Part shown: in pieces, positions 8,571-27,662 of the stretch | Layout of the letters: each line of letters begins with the position of its first letter | How positions within the stretch are numbered: position 1 is the stretch's first letter | Source of the DNA: a virus | Lineage: Duplodnaviria > Heunggongvirae > Uroviricota > Caudoviricetes | DNA length: 29,073 nt | IMG/VR virus record: IMGVR_UViG_2778261396_000002 | Reading direction: 5' to 3' (one strand) | Program-made: the position numbers and the translations under genes | Notes under the pieces: generated by a model | Databases searched by the model: none | What the model was told of the DNA's origin: nothing | Seen by the model: only the letters and a program-made list of their open reading frames with translations

Positions 8571-11042
8571 TTAAGAATCAGCCTGACTCGGGATCAGTTT
8601 TTGCCAGATAACTGAAACGTATTTTGCCTGGTAACGGGCGTCATCAAGTGCATTATGGCGCTCACCTTCGAATGGAATAGCCGTTCTGGCATCGAAGTCT
8701 ATGGCTTTCCCCAGCTCAACGATTGTGCGTACATCGCGATCGTTGTAGTAACGCCACGGGCAGGGGATCCCCTGCCGTTCGTATGAACGGCGCAAAATCG
8801 TGTTGTCGAAGTTGGCTCCATTTCCCCAAACCTGAACAAAAAATTCACCGGAGTTTTCGTCGATAAATTCTCGCAATTGTAACAGTGCATCATCTAACGG
8901 GATTTCATCGGTCATAATGGCAGATTGCGCTTCGCGTGATTGCTTAAGCCACCATTTAATGGTGTCCCGATCAATGACTCCGCCAGCAGTTTCCAGATCG
9001 ATAGTCTTACTAAATTCCGGTCCCATATCTCCGGTTTGCGGATCGAAAAATATTGCACCTATTGAGATGATCGGGGCATCAGGATTTTTTCCCATGGTTT
9101 CAAGGTCGATCATTAGATGGTCACACGTCCTGCTGGTGGATGTGATTTCGTGATGACCGTTCACCTTAATTGGGTGATCTGCCGTCTCGCCAGTTTCATT
9201 ATCGCTATTGTGATGCTGATTGCCGCCAGTGTTCTCCTTGTGTGGATGTTCAGCGCCTTCCATTTCCTCCGGATCATCTTCCTGAACTTCAACCTGATAC
9301 TCTTCATCGAATGTTTCTTGGTATGTTGCGTCGCCCATCACCGCGCCACAATCAGGGCAGTTGCCGCCGCCGGTCTGACCGCAGGCGGTGCAGACTTTTT
9401 CCACTTCCTGTTGCGCTACTGGTTCAGGCTGTTTCGTTTCTGGCTCGTTTTGTAACGCATTTGGACTGTTTTGTTCCGCTTTTTGGTAGTTCCGTTCCGA
9501 TTCATGCTGGTTCTGGTTCACAGAATCGCGGGTCTGGAGCCCCTTAACCCATTTCGGATCATTCGGGTCACTAATCCCTTCAACAAATTCACCACGTGAT
9601 GCAGCAAGCAACTTATCGGCGTCAGGCTGGCTGATATTGGCTGCCTGCATAATTTTGTTTACTTCGTCAGCGGTAACTTTTATCGGCTCTGGTTGTTCTG
9701 AATCTTCAGCGGTATCTACATTTTGCGGTAAGCCCGTGTATGTGCCATTTTTTCGGGCAAAATATTCTTCTTTTGTGATTTCAGTGGCGCCAGCAGCCAG
9801 TGCCTTATCCAGACCAGAGAGTTTGTTTGCGCGACCGTATTTTTCTCCGTCCTTATCTGCGAAGAGGAAATAGAACGGCCCCTCACGCTCTACAGATGGT
9901 TCAGCTTCCGGCGCGGTTTCATTTTTTGGGATATCAGATACCTCAGTTTCCACTGCATCAGTTTGTGTTTCTGATGACTGGAGAACATCAACAGTGCCCA
10001 GGTCTGTTTCTTCATTCTCAAACACGCCCTTTGTCGTCAGGTATTCGCAGATATATTTGTTCAGTGCTACGGGATCTTTGTGAATGTCGATCGGACGCTC
10101 ACGGACAAGGCCAAAAATAGTTTGGCGGTCGTAGCGAAGGGCATCAGGCTGTTTGCGCATTGATGCCGAGATACGCTTCCAGTCTTCGCGGTCGTTGTCG
10201 ATAACTTCTTTTTTTGCCCAGCGATGGATGCTGCCGTCAATGTTTCCGGCATCCACATCACTAGGCCAGAGAGCGTAGGCCAGTTCGTCATCCAGTGTTT
10301 TCCATGTCTGCTTGTATTCGCGATGAATGGCAGCAATGACCGGGCTGATTTTTCCTGTTGAATTTTCAGTGTACTGTTGATTGGCTCTGGCGCGGGCGAG
10401 ATCAACAACAGACGTGTATTTTCCGGTTTCCTTGCGTTCACCTTCGCGACGTTTTTTCCAGATGCGCATCTCTGCCTGAATTTCGGGCCATTTAGCACCA
10501 GGAATACATTTATGCTTAACCCACCCAATGGCGTGCAACTTAAGCTCCGGATACATGGCGTTAACTTCTGGCATTTTCATCAACGCTTCAACGATATGTC
10601 CGTCGAATGTTGCCATGTCTTCCTGCAACAATTCCTGTGCGCTAATAACCATATCAACGGTGATGTTTTCACATGTGTCGAACTTAACCATGACAGCGTT
10701 CTGTACTTCAGGGGCCAGCTTGTCAAAAGTGACGTTCATCGGATCGGATTCAGTCTCAACCGGGACAAAAGAAGCAGACTCCTCATCCCAGCGGTTTTCC
10801 TGCATATATTCAGCATCCCATGAATCGAGGGCAGGGCGGGGTATGCCAGGTTTATCCTCGCAGACAATAAATTTATAAGCGCAGTCCTGAGCAGCCGGAT
10901 AATGTTCCAGGAATTGCCAGTGAAATTTTGCTCGAGCACGGCGTTCGTCGCCAGCTTCAATGGCTGTGGCTACAGCCACAGCGCCTTCTTCCCTTGTTGC
11001 CAGTTCGTCAGGAATAGCGGCGCAAATAAAGACTTTACTCAT
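8571..11042 (-). CDS. ydfE: Large prophage exonuclease: N-terminal domain, acidic linker, CxxC…CxxC zinc ribbon, C-terminal DnaQ-like DEDDh 3'-5' exonuclease (823 aa); full-length counterpart of the K-12 ydfE fragment
   Basis: ORF 8571..11078; start ATG 11042 (MSKVFICAAIPDE…) with GAGG SD; C-terminus has Exo I (MIDLETMG), Exo II (WGNGANFD), Exo III (HNALDDARYQ) motifs. Confidence 0.7.
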   Translation of the reverse strand: MSKVFICAAIPDELATREEGAVAVATAIEAGDERRARAKFHWQFLEHYPAAQDCAYKFIVCEDKPGIPRPALDSWDAEYMQENRWDEESASFVPVETESDPMNVTFDKLAPEVQNAVMVKFDTCENITVDMVISAQELLQEDMATFDGHIVEALMKMPEVNAMYPELKLHAIGWVKHKCIPGAKWPEIQAEMRIWKKRREGERKETGKYTSVVDLARARANQQYTENSTGKISPVIAAIHREYKQTWKTLDDELAYALWPSDVDAGNIDGSIHRWAKKEVIDNDREDWKRISASMRKQPDALRYDRQTIFGLVRERPIDIHKDPVALNKYICEYLTTKGVFENEETDLGTVDVLQSSETQTDAVETEVSDIPKNETAPEAEPSVEREGPFYFLFADKDGEKYGRANKLSGLDKALAAGATEITKEEYFARKNGTYTGLPQNVDTAEDSEQPEPIKVTADEVNKIMQAANISQPDADKLLAASRGEFVEGISDPNDPKWVKGLQTRDSVNQNQHESERNYQKAEQNSPNALQNEPETKQPEPVAQQEVEKVCTACGQTGGGNCPDCGAVMGDATYQETFDEEYQVEVQEDDPEEMEGAEHPHKENTGGNQHHNSDNETGETADHPIKVNGHHEITSTSRTCDHLMIDLETMGKNPDAPIISIGAIFFDPQTGDMGPEFSKTIDLETAGGVIDRDTIKWWLKQSREAQSAIMTDEIPLDDALLQLREFIDENSGEFFVQVWGNGANFDNTILRRSYERQGIPCPWRYYNDRDVRTIVELGKAIDFDARTAIPFEGERHNALDDARYQAKYVSVIWQKLIPSQADS

Positions 11043-11134
11043 TTGTTTTAACCTCATGACAGATTTAAGGATGAACAAATCCCTGCCATTGCTGGCATAT
11101 AAGAATGAAACCGGATATTTATTACGGAACTGTT

Positions 11135-11326
11135 TTAAAGACCTGCCGGGATTTCGATATTATCCTGGTGAATAACTTTATCGACCGGGTAACAGTTACC
11201 GGGAATTTTCTGTTCGGTTGCTGCAGTCATACACTCCTGCATTGTCCTGTGAACACTGACTGCAATATCAACTGGCTCTCCGGAAACAAGAAAAACTGTC
11301 AGAACAAGCACAAATGCTGAATTCAT
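11135..11326 (-). CDS. ydfD: Small prophage protein YdfD (63 aa)
   Basis: Translation MNSAFVLVLTVFLVSGEPVDIAVSVHRTMQECMTAATEQKIPGNCYPVDKVIHQDNIEIPAGL; start overlaps dicB stop (ATGA). Confidence 0.8.
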   Translation of the reverse strand: MNSAFVLVLTVFLVSGEPVDIAVSVHRTMQECMTAATEQKIPGNCYPVDKVIHQDNIEIPAGL

Positions 11327-11511
11327 TGTGCACATCCTTTTGGCATCAGACGTAAACGAGCCAGCATTGAAACAATGCATATTTTATTTAATAGCTCCCG
11401 TTCTTGTTTTCTCTTGTTAATGGCATCTTCAGTAAATACTGGGTTACTGATAGTGACACCAATTTCAAAACAACCTTCAGACGTATTAACGTTTGGTAAT
11501 AACGTTTTCAT
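11323..11511 (-). CDS. dicB: Cell-division inhibitor DicB (62 aa)
   Basis: Translation MKTLLPNVNTSEGCFEIGVTISNPVFTEDAINKRKQERELLNKICIVSMLARLRLMPKGCAQ matches recalled DicB. Confidence 0.9.
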   Translation of the reverse strand: MKTLLPNVNTSEGCFEIGVTISNPVFTEDAINKRKQERELLNKICIVSMLARLRLMPKGCAQ

Positions 11512-11685
11512 TATCGCGTCCTCAACAATGAATTTTGTGATGCAGTGCCTGGTGCCTCCAGGTGACGTTAACCAGTTAACAATTAACGCCGGATACAGAG
11601 AATCCACCCATAACACTGTTTTTGGTTTTAACTGTTCCGCGTGCGCTCAGCCGCATTCACCACATCACAAAATTCACTTTAAAAA

Positions 11686-11738
11686 GGGCGGCAGAGCAGT
11701 CACGGAGTAAAACTGATACCGCCAAACGTCACCAGAAA
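11686..11738 (-). ncRNA. dicF: DicF small RNA (53 nt; ftsZ-targeting)
   Basis: Reverse complement reads TTTCTGGTGACGTTTGGCGGTATCAGTTTTACTCCGTGACTGCTCTGCCGCCC followed by T-run, matching recalled DicF; lies between ydfC and dicB. Confidence 0.85.
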
Positions 11739-17096: not shown

Positions 17097-17430
17097 ATAC
17101 AGCGAACTCCATTGGTTTAGTTGGATATTTACTGTGCTGGACAAAAACGGTTTGCGGGGAAATCTTAGTTAAGTAGAATGACTGCGGGTGCTTGAGGCTA
17201 TCTGCCTCGGGCATGGACACCAACGGCAGATAGAGAAAAGCCCCAGTTAACATTACGCGTCCTGCAAGACGCTTAACATTAATCTGAGGCCAATTTCATG
17301 CTAGACACATGTAGGTTAGCCTCTTACGTGCCGAAAGGCACGGAGAAGCAGGCTATTGTTAACACCAAGCTGTAATGTCCCCTTTGAACCATTCTAAAAT
17401 GTCCCCAGACAATTCTCTGGGGGATTTTTC

Positions 17431-24063: not shown

Positions 24064-24363
24064 AAAAATTCCTTAATACTGATAACTTGGCGCACTATAC
24101 ACACGTTCCTGAAGAAAGCTATAGTTTTTTGATGGGGTTGAAGATGGCTGGATGTCTAAAATAAACATTGCTTCATATGTTCAACTATGCGTTAATGATT
24201 GCGTCGGTTTGAAGAACAGACGATATACGAAGTAGTTTACTAAAGCAGTTCTCATTTCAGGTGTTATTCACTTATTCCTTCTTTGAGTCTCTCCAATTAA
24301 GTACGAAGTCGTTTCTGTTATGCAAACCATTTATGCCGAAAGGCTCAAGTTAAGGAATGTAGA

Positions 24364-24579
24364 ATGTCAAATAAAATGACTGGTTTAGTAAAATGGTTTA
24401 ACGCTGATAAAGGTTTCGGCTTTATTTCTCCTGTTGATGGTAGTAAAGATGTGTTTGTGCATTTTTCTGCGATTCAGAATGATAATTATCGAACCTTATT
24501 TGAAGGTCAAAAGGTTACCTTCTCTATAGAGAGTGGTCCTAAAGGTCCTGCAGCAGCAAATGTCATCATTACTGATTAA
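24364..24579 (+). CDS. cspB: Cold-shock protein CspB (71 aa)
   Basis: ORF translation [71 protein letters not shown]. Confidence 0.93.
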
Positions 24580-24861
24580 AATTCATCGCTCGTCTGTATA
24601 CGATAACGAAGAAGGCTGATGCCTGAGTAGAGATACGGACAGAGTAGTGAATATTGGATCTCTTTAATAAAAAGTAAGGAGGTCCAATACATGAAACAAT
24701 GGCTAGCATATTTGGCAAAATCTTAATCAGGAAAAGTATGCTAACCATTGTGGTGAAGTGCAGGTTTGCTGCATGAATAGTTTTACAGCAGAAGCTAACT
24801 GCTGGCATGGCAAAACAAAGTGCGTAAGTGGATGACTCCCACAAAAAGCACCACAATCTCA

Positions 24862-26888: not shown

Positions 26889-27250
26889 GGTAATATTAAA
26901 TCGGAACATTTACATCGCGGAATGTAAAATTTAAATAAAAAGGACTCTTCCATGAGCCAAAATTCCTGAAATCTTAAGGGTAAGATAAAAGGTCTTAATC
27001 AGAATGACACGTTTTATTAATAAATAAAGCTATTCTTTCATTGCTGTGTTTTTCTTTACAAAAGTAATCCTTGCTATGGGTGGTTAATCATGCGTTAATG
27101 GTGTTCTGGTTTGTTACAAATTTATCTGAAGCAGTCATTGTTATAATTTTATTATTTGTACCTCTTGAGATTTCCTTGTTGGTTTTTCTCTCTGATATTT
27201 TTTTTCGGACCATTCTGCCCAAGGGCTAATTTCTTCAAAAGGTAATAATT

Positions 27251-27463
27251 ATGTCTAACAAAATGACTGGTTTAGTGAAATGGTTTAACCCTGAAAAAGG
27301 TTTTGGTTTCATCACGCCGAAAGATGGCAGCAAAGATGTGTTTGTCCATTTCTCAGCAATTCAGAGCAACGATTTCAAAACATTAACTGAGAATCAGGAA
27401 GTTGAATTTGGTATTGAGAACGGACCTAAAGGTCCTGCCGCTGTTCATGTAGTGGCGCTTTGA
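27251..27463 (+). CDS. cspI: Cold-shock protein CspI (70 aa)
   Basis: ORF translation [70 protein letters not shown]. Confidence 0.93.
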
Positions 27464-27662
27464 GGTAGACAATATTACAAACCATATTCACTTTAGATGC
27501 CCGTGTTGTCATGGTTCCCAGTATAGAACATCATCTTTTGATGTTTCTGACATGAATCCTTTCGGGGCAAAATGTATCTTTTGTAAATCAATGATGATTA
27601 CATTTGATAATATTTCACAATACTTAAATGCCAGCCGTCTGTCGTTGGATTTAAAAAAGTGA
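27453..27662 (+). pseudogene. Zinc-ribbon ORF (paralog of 24943-25113) lacking canonical start; open frame begins inside cspI 3' end
   Basis: Frame open from TAG at 27450-27452: …HFRCPCCHGSQYRTSSFDVSDMNPFGAKCIFCKSMMITFDNISQYLNASRLSLDLKK*; first in-frame ATG (27552) lies after first Cys pair. Confidence 0.35.

What the first reader, a model, noticed from the sequence alone, without database searches (positions are those of the whole stretch)
8571..11042. 823-aa multi-domain DEDDh exonuclease occupying the recombination-gene position
The C-terminal ~200 aa carry clear DnaQ-like Exo I/II/III motifs (DLET, WGNGANFD, HNALDDARYQ), i.e. a 3'-5' exonuclease rather than a RecE/lambda-Exo type PD-(D/E)XK enzyme. 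It is fused to a long N-terminal region with an acidic low-complexity linker and a CxxC-N7-CxxC zinc ribbon (CTACGQTGGGNCPDCG). No recT/bet-like annealase gene is adjacent. The function (recombination, host-DNA attack, anti-defence) is not evident from sequence.
Basis: partly seen in the sequence, partly recalled or inferred. Interest (0 to 1): 0.55.

Follow-up and report, generated by a model that had tools for sequence, protein, structure and literature searches.

The report
RecE-like prophage protein with swapped exonuclease
This is the intact form of the E. coli prophage gene ydfE: a RecE-type scaffold protein whose usual 5'-3' nuclease (and its partner RecT) has been replaced by a T4 DexA-like 3'-5' exonuclease; it is very common and already annotated, but its biological role has not been tested.

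Summary
Window 8571-11042 (-) is one 823-aa ORF with a good ribosome-binding site. Its C-terminus (aa 642-813) is a DEDDh exonuclease (Pfam Rv2179c-like, E 2e-67) with all five catalytic residues. A 4-Cys ribbon lies at aa 551-566, flanked by acidic linkers. No annealase gene is nearby.

The first 256 aa are identical to the K-12 pseudogene ydfE, so this is intact YdfE of a Qin-type prophage at rspB. Residues 262-627 are homologous to the non-nuclease part of Rac RecE. The same scaffold, at 97% identity, also occurs with a RecE PD-(D/E)XK head followed by recT, and more distant relatives carry a Rad52-like head.

The closest characterised relatives of the DEDDh head are DNases: T4 DexA, and E. 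coli EcD, which blocks T4 when expressed from a plasmid. A standalone homologue sits between a Rad52-like annealase, SSB and an Abc2-like gene in a P22-like phage.

All folded domains are under purifying selection. The DEDDh head occurs in 75% of complete E. coli genomes, against 32% for the RecE head.

Most likely this is a DicA-repressed early phage DNA-end 3'-5' exonuclease acting without its own annealase. A defence role remains open. Verdict: a new variant of a known kind, of moderate interest.

The parts
8571..11042 (-). Whole gene: intact ydfE, 823 aa plus stop codon
   Evidence: ORF. GAGG lies 8 nt upstream of the ATG at 11042. The first 256 aa are 100% identical to K-12 pseudogene ydfE b1577, which is cut by IS2E. 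Full-length match to phrog_2082.
10428..11042 (-). YdfE_N folded domain, aa 1-205 (alpha/beta plus helices)
10023..10325 (-). Helical domain, aa 240-340; the similarity to RecE begins within it (RecE about 278-350)
   Evidence: pLDDT above 90. BLASTP alignment to RecE begins at aa 262. The NCBIfam RecE profile matches aa 246-623. dN/dS 0.11.
9882..10022 (-). Acidic disordered linker, aa 341-387
   Evidence: pLDDT below 50 over aa 345-382. 32% D+E. dN/dS 0.6-0.67.
9747..9881 (-). Small beta/alpha domain, aa 388-432 (GPFYFLFADKDG...)
   Evidence: pLDDT 92-96. dN/dS 0.03-0.05, the most constrained segment.
9177..9620 (-). Segment shared with RecE, aa 475-622; mosaic junctions lie at both ends
   Evidence: DNA is 78% identical to K-12 recE only over gene nt 1425-1867. 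Identity to the 900-aa RecE-headed variant stops at nt 1867. Protein is about 85% identical to RecE 455-592. Relatives carry Pfam PF27432 YdfE_C; the output gives no coordinates, so placing that family on this segment is my inference.
9345..9392 (-). Four-cysteine zinc ribbon, aa 551-566 (CTACGQTGGGNCPDCG)
   Evidence: Motif position. Conserved in RecE as CNACGQTGGDNCPDCG. The same motif ends Dam methyltransferases of P2-like phages. Metal binding is inferred, not tested.
9162..9344 (-). Acidic tail/linker, aa 567-627, ending at the head-swap breakpoint
   Evidence: 30% D+E. Protein homology to the RecE-headed variant and to RecE ends at aa 627.
8604..9119 (-). DEDDh 3'-5' exonuclease domain, aa 642-813; catalytic residues D646, E648, D746, H796, D801
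   Evidence: PF16473 at E 2.4e-67. PDB sequence hit to 8kel/8ken, identified as T4 DexA. Catalytic residues invariant. Identity: 37% to EcD, 60% to the mEp460_4F5 standalone gene, 56% to phiKp_30. dN/dS 0.09-0.16.
9132..9139 (+). Chi octamer GCTGGTGG, 37 nt beyond the head-swap breakpoint
   Evidence: Possibly relevant to how the swap arose, possibly coincidence. It is the only Chi site in the gene.
11135..11737 (-). Upstream genes of the operon: DicF sRNA (11686-11737), a dicB-like ORF (11323-11616 as listed, about 62 aa in annotations) and ydfD (11135-11380 as listed)
   Evidence: Rfam DicF at 76.7 bits. Annotation of identical DNA. According to RegulonDB, as cited in PMC11430063, the dicB promoter transcribes dicB-ydfD-ydfE and is repressed by DicA.

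Best explanation
The gene encodes a modular DNA-end-processing enzyme of a Qin-type lambdoid prophage. It is expressed from the DicA-repressed early-left (dicB) operon when the prophage is derepressed.

Shown:
- The protein is a string of folded modules joined by acidic, disordered linkers: aa 1-205, 240-340, 388-432, a 4-Cys ribbon at aa 551-566, and a DEDDh domain at aa 642-813.
- Residues 262-627 are homologous to the non-nuclease part of Rac RecE.
- The C-terminal head belongs to the Rv2179c/DexA family and keeps all five catalytic residues.
- The same scaffold exists with a RecE PD-(D/E)XK head followed by recT, or with a Rad52-fold head.
- The DEDDh version is followed directly by xis-int, with no annealase gene.

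Inferred:
- The head removes nucleotides from 3'-OH ends by two-metal catalysis. D646, E648, D746 and D801 would hold the Mg2+ ions and H796 would act as general base.
- The substrate is DNA rather than RNA, because the closest characterised relatives (T4 DexA, E. coli EcD) are DNases.
- The N-terminal scaffold supplies whatever is common to all head types. That is most likely recruitment to linear DNA ends or recombination intermediates, or oligomerisation.
- Having no annealase of its own, the enzyme works alone or with host proteins (SSB, RecA, RecBCD). It would trim or degrade 3' ends of linear DNA during lytic growth, rather than run a RecET-type single-strand-annealing reaction.
For: Domain identity and active site.

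Homology to RecE, and its precise end where the RecE nuclease domain begins.

The scaffold is a platform for interchangeable recombination heads:
- A 900-aa variant is 97% identical over aa 1-627. It carries PF12684 and is followed by RecT, Lar, DUF1187, xis and int.
- All four N-terminus/head combinations occur among the family representatives.
- The variant with the RecE N-terminus and a DEDDh head also lacks recT.

The DEDDh head keeps company with recombination genes. In the P22-like phage phiKp_30 the order is Rad52-like annealase, SSB, DEDDh, Abc2-like gene. Zheng et al. 2025 (PMC12315714) report DnaQ-like nucleases in lambdoid Rec modules and near int.

The closest characterised relatives are DNases (PMC12153337).

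The protein is functional rather than decaying: dN/dS 0.03-0.16 in all folded modules.

Operon and repression. No terminator-like site with a strong stem and T-run lies between ydfD and the gene.
Against: - No activity, substrate or phenotype has been measured for this protein.
- The Pfam family is named for an exoribonuclease, and NCBI often labels the gene '3'-5' exoribonuclease'.
- 3'-5' exonucleases usually inhibit rather than promote homologous recombination, as PMC12315714 notes.
- With no annealase present, a constructive recombination role is hard to picture.
- The function of the scaffold is unknown even in RecE (PMC11611040). The N-terminal scaffold (aa 1-470) has no informative structural relative.
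- The fold of aa 470-823 was not modelled.
Confidence: 0.5

Rival explanations
1. Prophage-encoded anti-phage nuclease (superinfection exclusion, HREX-like). The DEDDh head degrades the DNA of incoming phages, for example modified T-even DNA, as reported for the E. coli DexA homologue EcD. The scaffold would only target or regulate it.
For: - EcD digests 5hmC-containing T4 DNA but not unmodified dsDNA, and protects cells against T4 when plasmid-borne (PMC12153337).
- I rebuilt EcD from the paper's primers and an IMG/VR scan. It is 37% identical to aa 636-823, with the same catalytic residues.
- The head is present in 75% of complete E. coli genomes, often in several copies. That fits a benefit to the host.
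- From my own knowledge, not checked here: DicB from the same operon has been reported to protect against some phages.
Against: - The paper's own criteria for 5hmC recognition are only half met. W152 aligns with Y766, but the key acidic D169 aligns with K779.
- D90, the tetramer residue that EcD has lost, is retained here as D718.
- The operon is repressed by DicA in lysogens, so the enzyme should be absent when a superinfecting phage arrives.
- PADLOC gives only a weak generic DEDDh hit at E 1.8e-5.
- EcD itself sits in the early operon of what looks like a P2-like prophage (inferred from gene order), so its defence role may be a side effect of expression from a plasmid.
- The scaffold is shared with RecE and with Rad52-like annealase fusions.
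Confidence: 0.22
2. An exoribonuclease, as the Pfam family name suggests. It would trim 3' ends of RNA, for example processing or degrading the dicF/dicB transcript, host RNAs or short oligoribonucleotides.
For: The Pfam family PF16473 is named for Rv2179c, a 3'-5' exoribonuclease; that the activity was measured in vitro is my own knowledge. A weak RNase_T hit at E 4e-4. NCBI names the protein '3'-5' exoribonuclease'. The gene lies in an operon whose RNA is processed to give DicF (the processing itself is from my own knowledge).
Against: - The only solved structure found by sequence is T4 DexA, a DNA exonuclease. Rv2179c is not retrieved even with a profile.
- The E. coli and phage relatives that have been characterised are DNases.
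- The domain is mounted on a RecE scaffold in place of a DNA nuclease.
- Its standalone homologue sits next to an annealase, SSB and an Abc2-like gene.
Confidence: 0.1
3. A true recombination exonuclease that feeds a host pathway or an unrecognised annealase. It would resect 3' strands to give 5' overhangs for annealing, a mirror-image RecE.
For: It occupies the same slot and has the same scaffold as RecE. Related scaffolds are fused to a Rad52-like annealase. Full-length RecE, scaffold included, enhances linear-linear recombination (PMC11611040 citing Fu et al. 2012).
Against: No annealase gene is annotated in the whole phage or next to either DEDDh-headed scaffold type. Every RecE-headed copy examined has recT immediately downstream. 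RecA-dependent invasion needs 3' tails, which this enzyme would remove (textbook knowledge).
Confidence: 0.13
4. A decaying remnant or an accidental fusion with no function of its own.
For: K-12 carries only a fragment truncated by IS2. Some copies are interrupted by IS elements or frameshifted (H26, H138, PPompW_EH1846). Many truncated clusters appear in protein databases.
Against: dN/dS is 0.03-0.16 in every folded module, against 0.5-0.9 in the linkers. Thousands of full-length copies exist. The gene is intact in inducible or isolated phages (PhiR42_1, HannyBb, Tritos, mEp460, Evi).
Confidence: 0.03

Closest known systems
RecE (exodeoxyribonuclease VIII) of the Rac prophage
   Same: Same position in the early-left operon, just before xis-int. 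Homologous central region: aa 262-627 against RecE 278-592, about 85% identical over the last 150 aa, including the 4-Cys ribbon and the acidic tail. Same overall plan: a long non-catalytic N-terminal part followed by a C-terminal nuclease.
   Different: The first about 260 aa are a different domain (YdfE_N rather than Pfam Exonuc_VIII PF06630). The PD-(D/E)XK 5'-3' nuclease domain is absent and a DEDDh 3'-5' domain stands in its place. No recT follows. The score is far below the RecE equivalog cut-off, 281.6 against 1269 bits.
T4 DexA (exonuclease A; PDB 8kel/8ken)
   Same: It is the only solved structure retrieved by sequence, E 1.5e-6. All five catalytic residues align. It is a phage-encoded 3'-5' DNA exonuclease (T4 annotation; PMC12153337).
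   Different: Only 25% identical. DexA is a free-standing 227-aa protein with extra loops. The residue proposed to read 5hmC, D169, is K779 here.
EcD, the E. coli DexA homologue of the proposed 'HREX' defence (Kang et al. 2025, PMC12153337)
   Same: Same family, 37% identical over 180 aa, with the same catalytic residues. Also carried by a prophage and encoded in an early operon.
   Different: EcD is a standalone 189-aa protein in what looks like a P2-like element (inferred from gene order). It has W132/E145 at the proposed 5hmC-reading positions and A78 at the tetramer position, where this protein has Y766, K779 and D718. EcD has measured activity and a phenotype; this protein has neither.
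DnaQ-like 3'-5' nucleases of lambdoid Rec modules, and 'RecE-2' proteins (Zheng et al. 2025, PMC12315714)
   Same: That paper reports DnaQ-type nuclease genes in lambdoid early-left operons, some near int and outside a recognisable Rec module. It also reports RecE-related proteins without a nuclease domain. This gene fits the first class by position and domain.
   Different: The main text does not describe the fusion of a DnaQ-like head to a RecE/YdfE scaffold, and it leaves these genes unstudied. Its supplementary tables were not available to me.
Rv2179c of Mycobacterium tuberculosis, founder of Pfam PF16473
   Same: Same Pfam family at E 2.4e-67, covering the whole profile.
   Different: According to the family description, Rv2179c is a small standalone exoribonuclease. 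It is not retrieved from the PDB by sequence or by profile with this domain. The context here points to DNA.

Membership tests
DEDDh (DnaQ-like) exonucleases, Pfam PF16473 Rv2179c-like | Score above the Pfam gathering threshold over the whole domain | tested here: met
   226.5 bits against a cut-off of 27. aa 642-813 match profile positions 2-177 of 177.
DEDDh (DnaQ-like) exonucleases, Pfam PF16473 Rv2179c-like | Exo I (DxE), Exo II (D) and Exo III (Hx4D) catalytic residues | tested here: met
   D646, E648, D746, H796 and D801 are invariant in alignments with T4 DexA, EcD and three phage homologues.
DEDDh (DnaQ-like) exonucleases, Pfam PF16473 Rv2179c-like | Metal-dependent 3'-5' exonuclease activity | not testable with these tools
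   Needs a biochemical assay.
RecE / exodeoxyribonuclease VIII (NCBIfam NF007259 equivalog) | Whole-protein score above the equivalog cut-off | tested here: not met
   281.6 bits against a cut-off of 1269. Only profile positions 271-600 of 877 are matched.
RecE / exodeoxyribonuclease VIII (NCBIfam NF007259 equivalog) | C-terminal PD-(D/E)XK nuclease domain (Pfam PF12684/DUF3799) | tested here: not met
   No such Pfam hit. Alignment to RecE stops at RecE residue 592. DNA identity to the RecE-headed variant stops at gene nt 1867.
RecE / exodeoxyribonuclease VIII (NCBIfam NF007259 equivalog) | Shared central region with the zinc ribbon | tested here: met
   aa 262-627 align to RecE 278-592, E 2e-61.
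Two-component phage recombinases (exonuclease plus annealase, e.g. RecET, lambda Red) | An annealase gene (RecT/Bet/Erf/Rad52-like/Sak4) adjacent or in the same operon | tested here: not met
   None lies between dicA and int. None is annotated in the identical phage PhiR42_1. The small unannotated ORFs of that phage were not scanned with profiles.
Two-component phage recombinases (exonuclease plus annealase, e.g. RecET, lambda Red) | 5'-3' polarity, giving 3' overhangs | tested here: not met
   The catalytic domain is of the DEDDh type, whose characterised members all act 3'-5'. The polarity of this protein itself has not been measured.
YdfE family (Pfam PF27430 YdfE_N plus PF27432 YdfE_C) | Carries both domains | tested here: met
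   The first 256 aa are identical to K-12 YdfE. Relatives of the N-terminal 640 aa at 92-97% identity carry precomputed PF27430 and PF27432 hits. The local Pfam copy predates these models, so the window protein was not scored against them directly.
HREX / EcD-type modification-dependent defence exonuclease (Kang et al. 2025) | DexA homologue with an intact active site | tested here: met
   37% identical to EcD with all catalytic residues conserved.
HREX / EcD-type modification-dependent defence exonuclease (Kang et al. 2025) | Aromatic residue and acidic residue at the positions of DexA W152 and D169 (5hmC recognition) | tested here: not met
   Y766 aligns with W152, so the aromatic is kept. 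K779 aligns with D169, so the acid is lost. The alignment in this loop is of moderate confidence.
HREX / EcD-type modification-dependent defence exonuclease (Kang et al. 2025) | Loss of the tetramer-forming D90 (A78 in EcD) | tested here: not met
   D718 aligns with DexA D90.
HREX / EcD-type modification-dependent defence exonuclease (Kang et al. 2025) | Selective cleavage of 5hmC DNA and protection against T4 | not testable with these tools
   Needs enzyme assays and plaque assays.

The most novel reading that the evidence does not exclude
The RecE/YdfE N-terminal scaffold could be a general delivery platform for interchangeable DNA-processing heads. Three kinds are seen: a 5'-3' PD-(D/E)XK exonuclease, a 3'-5' DEDDh exonuclease and a Rad52-like annealase.

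The DEDDh version is the commonest of these in E. coli. It might carry out an annealase-independent job not yet described for lambdoid phages. One possibility is destroying the DNA ends of competing or superinfecting phages. Another is removing 3' tails to blunt host RecBCD/RecA processing of phage DNA.

The 4-Cys ribbon is shared with phage Dam methyltransferases. On this reading it would be the common docking or DNA-binding element.
Probability: 0.25. Interest if true: 0.65.

Novelty: new variant of a known kind. Interest (0 to 1): 0.4.

Why it matters
RecE is a workhorse of recombineering, yet the role of its N-terminal 600 residues is still unknown.

This gene shows that the same scaffold is used in nature with at least three different catalytic heads. 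The textbook RecE head is the minority form in E. coli: 32% of complete genomes carry it, against 75% for the DEDDh head.

That gives a natural head-swap series for asking what the scaffold does. It also singles out one of the most widespread prophage genes of E. coli as having no tested function.

Its closest characterised relative, EcD, was recently proposed as an anti-T4 defence. Testing the fused form would therefore show whether lambdoid prophages carry a common nuclease-based exclusion function, or whether these enzymes are ordinary early genes of phage DNA metabolism.

In practice, 'exodeoxyribonuclease VIII' and '3'-5' exoribonuclease' are both doubtful labels for this gene.

Tried and rejected
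- **PADLOC.** Only a weak generic DEDDh hit at E 1.8e-5, with no defence-system model matched.
- **Chi abundance.** I asked whether the phage belongs to the 'no Rec module, Chi-rich' class of Zheng et al. PhiR42_1 has 6 Chi sites in 48.7 kb, which I do not regard as rich, so I dropped the idea.
- **Sequence tests of the Rad52-like head.** A profile search of the PDB found nothing. The case therefore rests on weak Pfam hits and on the fold search.
- **Is EcD the same protein?** No. Its primers define a standalone 189-aa gene in what looks like a P2-like element.
- **Literature.** One search was wasted when 'RecE' matched 'receptor'. Searches for PF16473, DUF5051, and ydfE with exonuclease returned nothing.
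- **Promoter/terminator scan.** Uninformative: counts were at or below those of shuffled sequence.
- **Not modelled.** Residues 470-823 of this protein.
Full report
**Observation**

The minus strand of the window carries a single open reading frame from the ATG at 11042 to the stop at 8571-8573, 823 codons. GAGG lies 8 nt upstream of the ATG. A longer TTG start at 11078 is possible but unsupported. There are also two acidic stretches, aa 341-387 and 567-627, each about 30% Asp+Glu.

Pfam places aa 642-813 in PF16473 (Rv2179c-like 3'-5' exoribonuclease) at E 2.4e-67, and gives a weak RNase_T hit. The only solved structure found by sequence is 8kel/8ken at E 1.5e-6. The literature identifies it as phage T4 exonuclease DexA. 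D646, E648, D746, H796 and D801 are invariant in alignments with DexA and with phage and E. coli homologues.

**Where the gene sits**

The window is host DNA (ynfE to rspB) followed by a lambdoid prophage integrated next to rspB. Identical DNA in E. coli CFSAN061762 and in phage PhiR42_1 is annotated in this order: dicA (cI-like), ydfA, ydfB, ydfC, dicB, ydfD, this gene, xis, int, rspB. Rfam finds the DicF sRNA at 11686-11737.

This is the layout of the K-12 cryptic prophage Qin. There the corresponding gene is the pseudogene ydfE, cut by IS2E. The first 256 residues of the window protein are 100% identical to K-12 YdfE, so the finding is the intact form of ydfE. According to RegulonDB, as cited in PMC11430063, the dicB promoter transcribes dicB, ydfD and ydfE and is repressed by DicA. 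I found no terminator-like site with a strong stem and T-run between ydfD and the gene.

**Relation to RecE**

The NCBIfam RecE equivalog matches aa 246-623 against profile positions 271-600 of 877, far below its cut-off. BLASTP against K-12 RecE aligns aa 262-627 with RecE 278-592 at E 2e-61. The last 150 residues are about 85% identical, including the ribbon (CNACGQTGGDNCPDCG in RecE) and the acidic tail. The alignment stops just where the RecE nuclease domain begins. The protein is therefore not an unrelated enzyme occupying the recE slot. It is a RecE-family scaffold with a different head and a different first domain.

**The head is an exchangeable cassette**

A search with aa 1-640 found two architectures sharing this scaffold almost exactly. 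One is the 812-826-aa form with PF16473. The other is a 900-aa form with PF12684 (the RecE-type PD-(D/E)XK domain), 97% identical over aa 1-627. In two contigs the 900-aa gene is followed by RecT, then in one a Lar/RalR-like gene, then DUF1187, xis and int, at the Rac site by ttcA.

At the DNA level, identity between the two forms is 98.4% up to gene nt 1867 and then ends. K-12 recE matches the window gene only over nt 1425-1867, but matches the 900-aa form from nt 1425 to the end at 93.6%. So aa 475-622 is a shared segment flanked by two mosaic junctions. The swap exchanges the DEDDh head for a block comprising the nuclease head and recT, with ral and rcbA homologues where these are present.

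Among representatives at the 50% cluster level the family is small: 247 clusters out of 1.84 billion. Every combination of N-terminal domain (YdfE_N or the Pfam Exonuc_VIII domain of RecE) with head (DEDDh or PD-(D/E)XK) occurs. A form with the RecE N-terminus and a DEDDh head sits in a Rac-like operon, sieB-kilR-ydaE-gene-xis-int, again without recT.

**A third head**

Eighteen of the representatives analysed, most of them 680-815 aa long, have no Pfam hit for their last roughly 260 residues. PHROGs calls them 'exonuclease' (phrog_2489 and 7838). Seven of ten give sub-threshold hits to Rad52_Rad22 at the motif KKSLTDAxKKALSxLGF.

**The scaffold itself**

Comparison with phages Evi and mEp460_ev081 gives dN/dS of 0.06 for aa 1-205, 0.11 for aa 240-340, 0.03-0.05 for aa 388-432 and 0.09-0.16 for the DEDDh domain. 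The linkers give 0.5-0.9. All folded parts are therefore maintained by selection, which rules out a decaying or accidental fusion.

**What the DEDDh head probably does**

The domain is common in phages: 1292 of 50,697 phage records. Standalone homologues include a 190-aa gene near int in mEp460_4F5 (60% identical). Another is a gene in the P22-like Klebsiella phage phiKp_30 (56% identical) that lies between a Rad52_Rad22 annealase (E 5e-26), an SSB gene and a weak Abc2-like gene. Zheng et al. 2025 independently report DnaQ-like 3'-5' nucleases in lambdoid Rec modules and sporadically near int, and leave them unstudied.

Kang et al. 2025 solved the DexA structure. They also showed that an E. 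coli homologue, EcD, does not cut unmodified dsDNA but digests 5hmC-containing T4 DNA, and protects cells against T4 when expressed from a plasmid. I rebuilt EcD from their primer sequences and an IMG/VR scan. Its A78 aligns with DexA D90, as the paper states. EcD is a standalone 189-aa protein in the early operon of what looks like a P2-like prophage. It is 37% identical to aa 636-823 here.

Two of the paper's criteria for the 5hmC-specific, dimer-only state are not met in the window protein. The D169 position is K779, and the D90 position is kept as D718. W152 is replaced by Y766. The nearest characterised relatives are thus DNases, which favours DNA over RNA as substrate. A specific HREX-type activity is not predicted.

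**Prevalence**

Counts are for the 5426 complete E. coli genomes.

| Segment | Genomes with at least 80% coverage | Places in all |
|---|---|---|
| DEDDh head | 4048 (75%) | 8098 |
| RecE nuclease head | 1730 (32%) | 1827 |
| YdfE_N domain | 3870 (71%) | 6847 |
| Full-length gene | 3537 (65%) | 10640 |

In RefSeq the gene is annotated as 'exonuclease', '3'-5' exonuclease' or '3'-5' exoribonuclease domain-containing protein'. In phage records it is labelled 'exodeoxyribonuclease VIII'. Some copies are interrupted by IS elements or frameshifted.

**Most likely mechanism**

When DicA repression is lifted, the early-left transcript produces a multi-module protein. Its C-terminal DEDDh domain removes nucleotides from DNA 3' ends by two-metal catalysis. 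Its RecE-type scaffold supplies whatever all head types share, probably recruitment to linear DNA ends or recombination intermediates, or oligomerisation.

Neither DEDDh-headed scaffold type has an annealase partner, whereas every RecE-headed copy examined has recT. The enzyme therefore probably works without single-strand annealing. It would trim or degrade 3' ends either alone or with host proteins.

The architecture, the homologies, the context and the selection pattern are shown. The substrate, the polarity, the scaffold function and the biological role are inferred. I put 0.5 on this statement.

The rivals are:
- a defence or exclusion nuclease of the EcD kind (0.22)
- a true recombination exonuclease feeding a host or unrecognised annealase (0.13)
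- an RNase (0.10)
- a functionless remnant (0.03)

**Novelty and verdict**

The gene family is catalogued (PHROG 2082, Pfam YdfE_N and YdfE_C, thousands of RefSeq entries). Its two nearest functional reference points were published in 2025. I could find no description of the fusion of a DexA-type head to a RecE scaffold, of the three-way head exchange, or of the numerical dominance of the DEDDh form. No experimental work on the protein appeared in the searchable literature either.

I class it as a new variant of a known kind. The interest is moderate. It is unsurprising as phage mosaicism, but it gives a natural handle on the unexplained RecE N-terminal region, and it is one of the commonest untested prophage genes in E. 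coli.

Noticed in passing
window 9132-9139 (+): A Chi octamer (GCTGGTGG) lies inside the gene, 37 nt beyond the point where DNA identity to the RecE-headed variant ends. It is the only Chi site in the 2.5-kb gene. About 0.08 would be expected by chance in the whole gene. It could mark a recombination hotspot that favoured the head swap, or it could be coincidence.
   Followed up: partly
window 9345-9392 (-); L035 5187-6167 (-); L045 2658-3629 (+): The 4-Cys ribbon motif C-x-A-C-G-x2-G-G-x-x-C-P-D-C-G-x-V-x-G-D-A-T-Y is not confined to RecE/YdfE proteins. It also forms the C-terminus of Dam methyltransferases: one in P2-like phage phiT5282H, one in a Klebsiella record, and the one next to EcD. 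It occurs too in hypothetical proteins of Aeromonas phages. It looks like a portable module attached to DNA-acting enzymes. Its partner or ligand is unknown.
   Followed up: partly
[not shown]
   Followed up: yes
L035 6401-6991 (-), also L014, L019, L029, L032: EcD, published as a bacterial anti-T4 defence exonuclease, lies in the early operon of an integrase-bearing prophage that looks P2-like by gene order. It sits immediately upstream of a Dam methyltransferase. The natural ORF may start 7 codons upstream of the Met used for cloning (MRIMNHLMIDTET...).
   Followed up: partly
P0201 (703 aa): A protein with the RecE N-terminus and the start of the shared ribbon-region segment (its aa 453-527 match) fused directly to a RecT domain (Pfam RecT, E 1e-42). 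The nuclease head has been deleted in frame.
   Followed up: no
window 11686-11737 (-): DicF sRNA (Rfam RF00039, 76.7 bits) lies upstream in the same operon, as in K-12 Qin.
   Followed up: yes
window 17186-17357 (+); 24203-24595 (+); 27105-27490 (+): A sok antitoxin RNA of a hok/sok-type locus, and two cspA-type thermoregulator leaders in front of prophage cold-shock genes.
   Followed up: no
E. coli complete genomes: The DEDDh head occurs at about 4.4 times as many places as the RecE PD-(D/E)XK head (8098 against 1827). The textbook RecE architecture is therefore the minority form of this gene family in E. coli.
   Followed up: yes
L039 1601-4068; H26 (NZ_CP128581.1); H138 (NZ_CP195454.1): Some copies are inactivated. 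The PPompW_EH1846 copy is annotated as frameshifted, and others are interrupted by IS3 or IS1 elements, as K-12 ydfE is by IS2.
   Followed up: no
L038 3001-5481 compared with window 8571-11042: Phage Evi carries the same scaffold (97% aa identity in the N-terminal domains) but a divergent DEDDh head (73% aa identity, dS about 1.1). Alleles of the DEDDh head are therefore also shuffled among scaffolds.
   Followed up: partly
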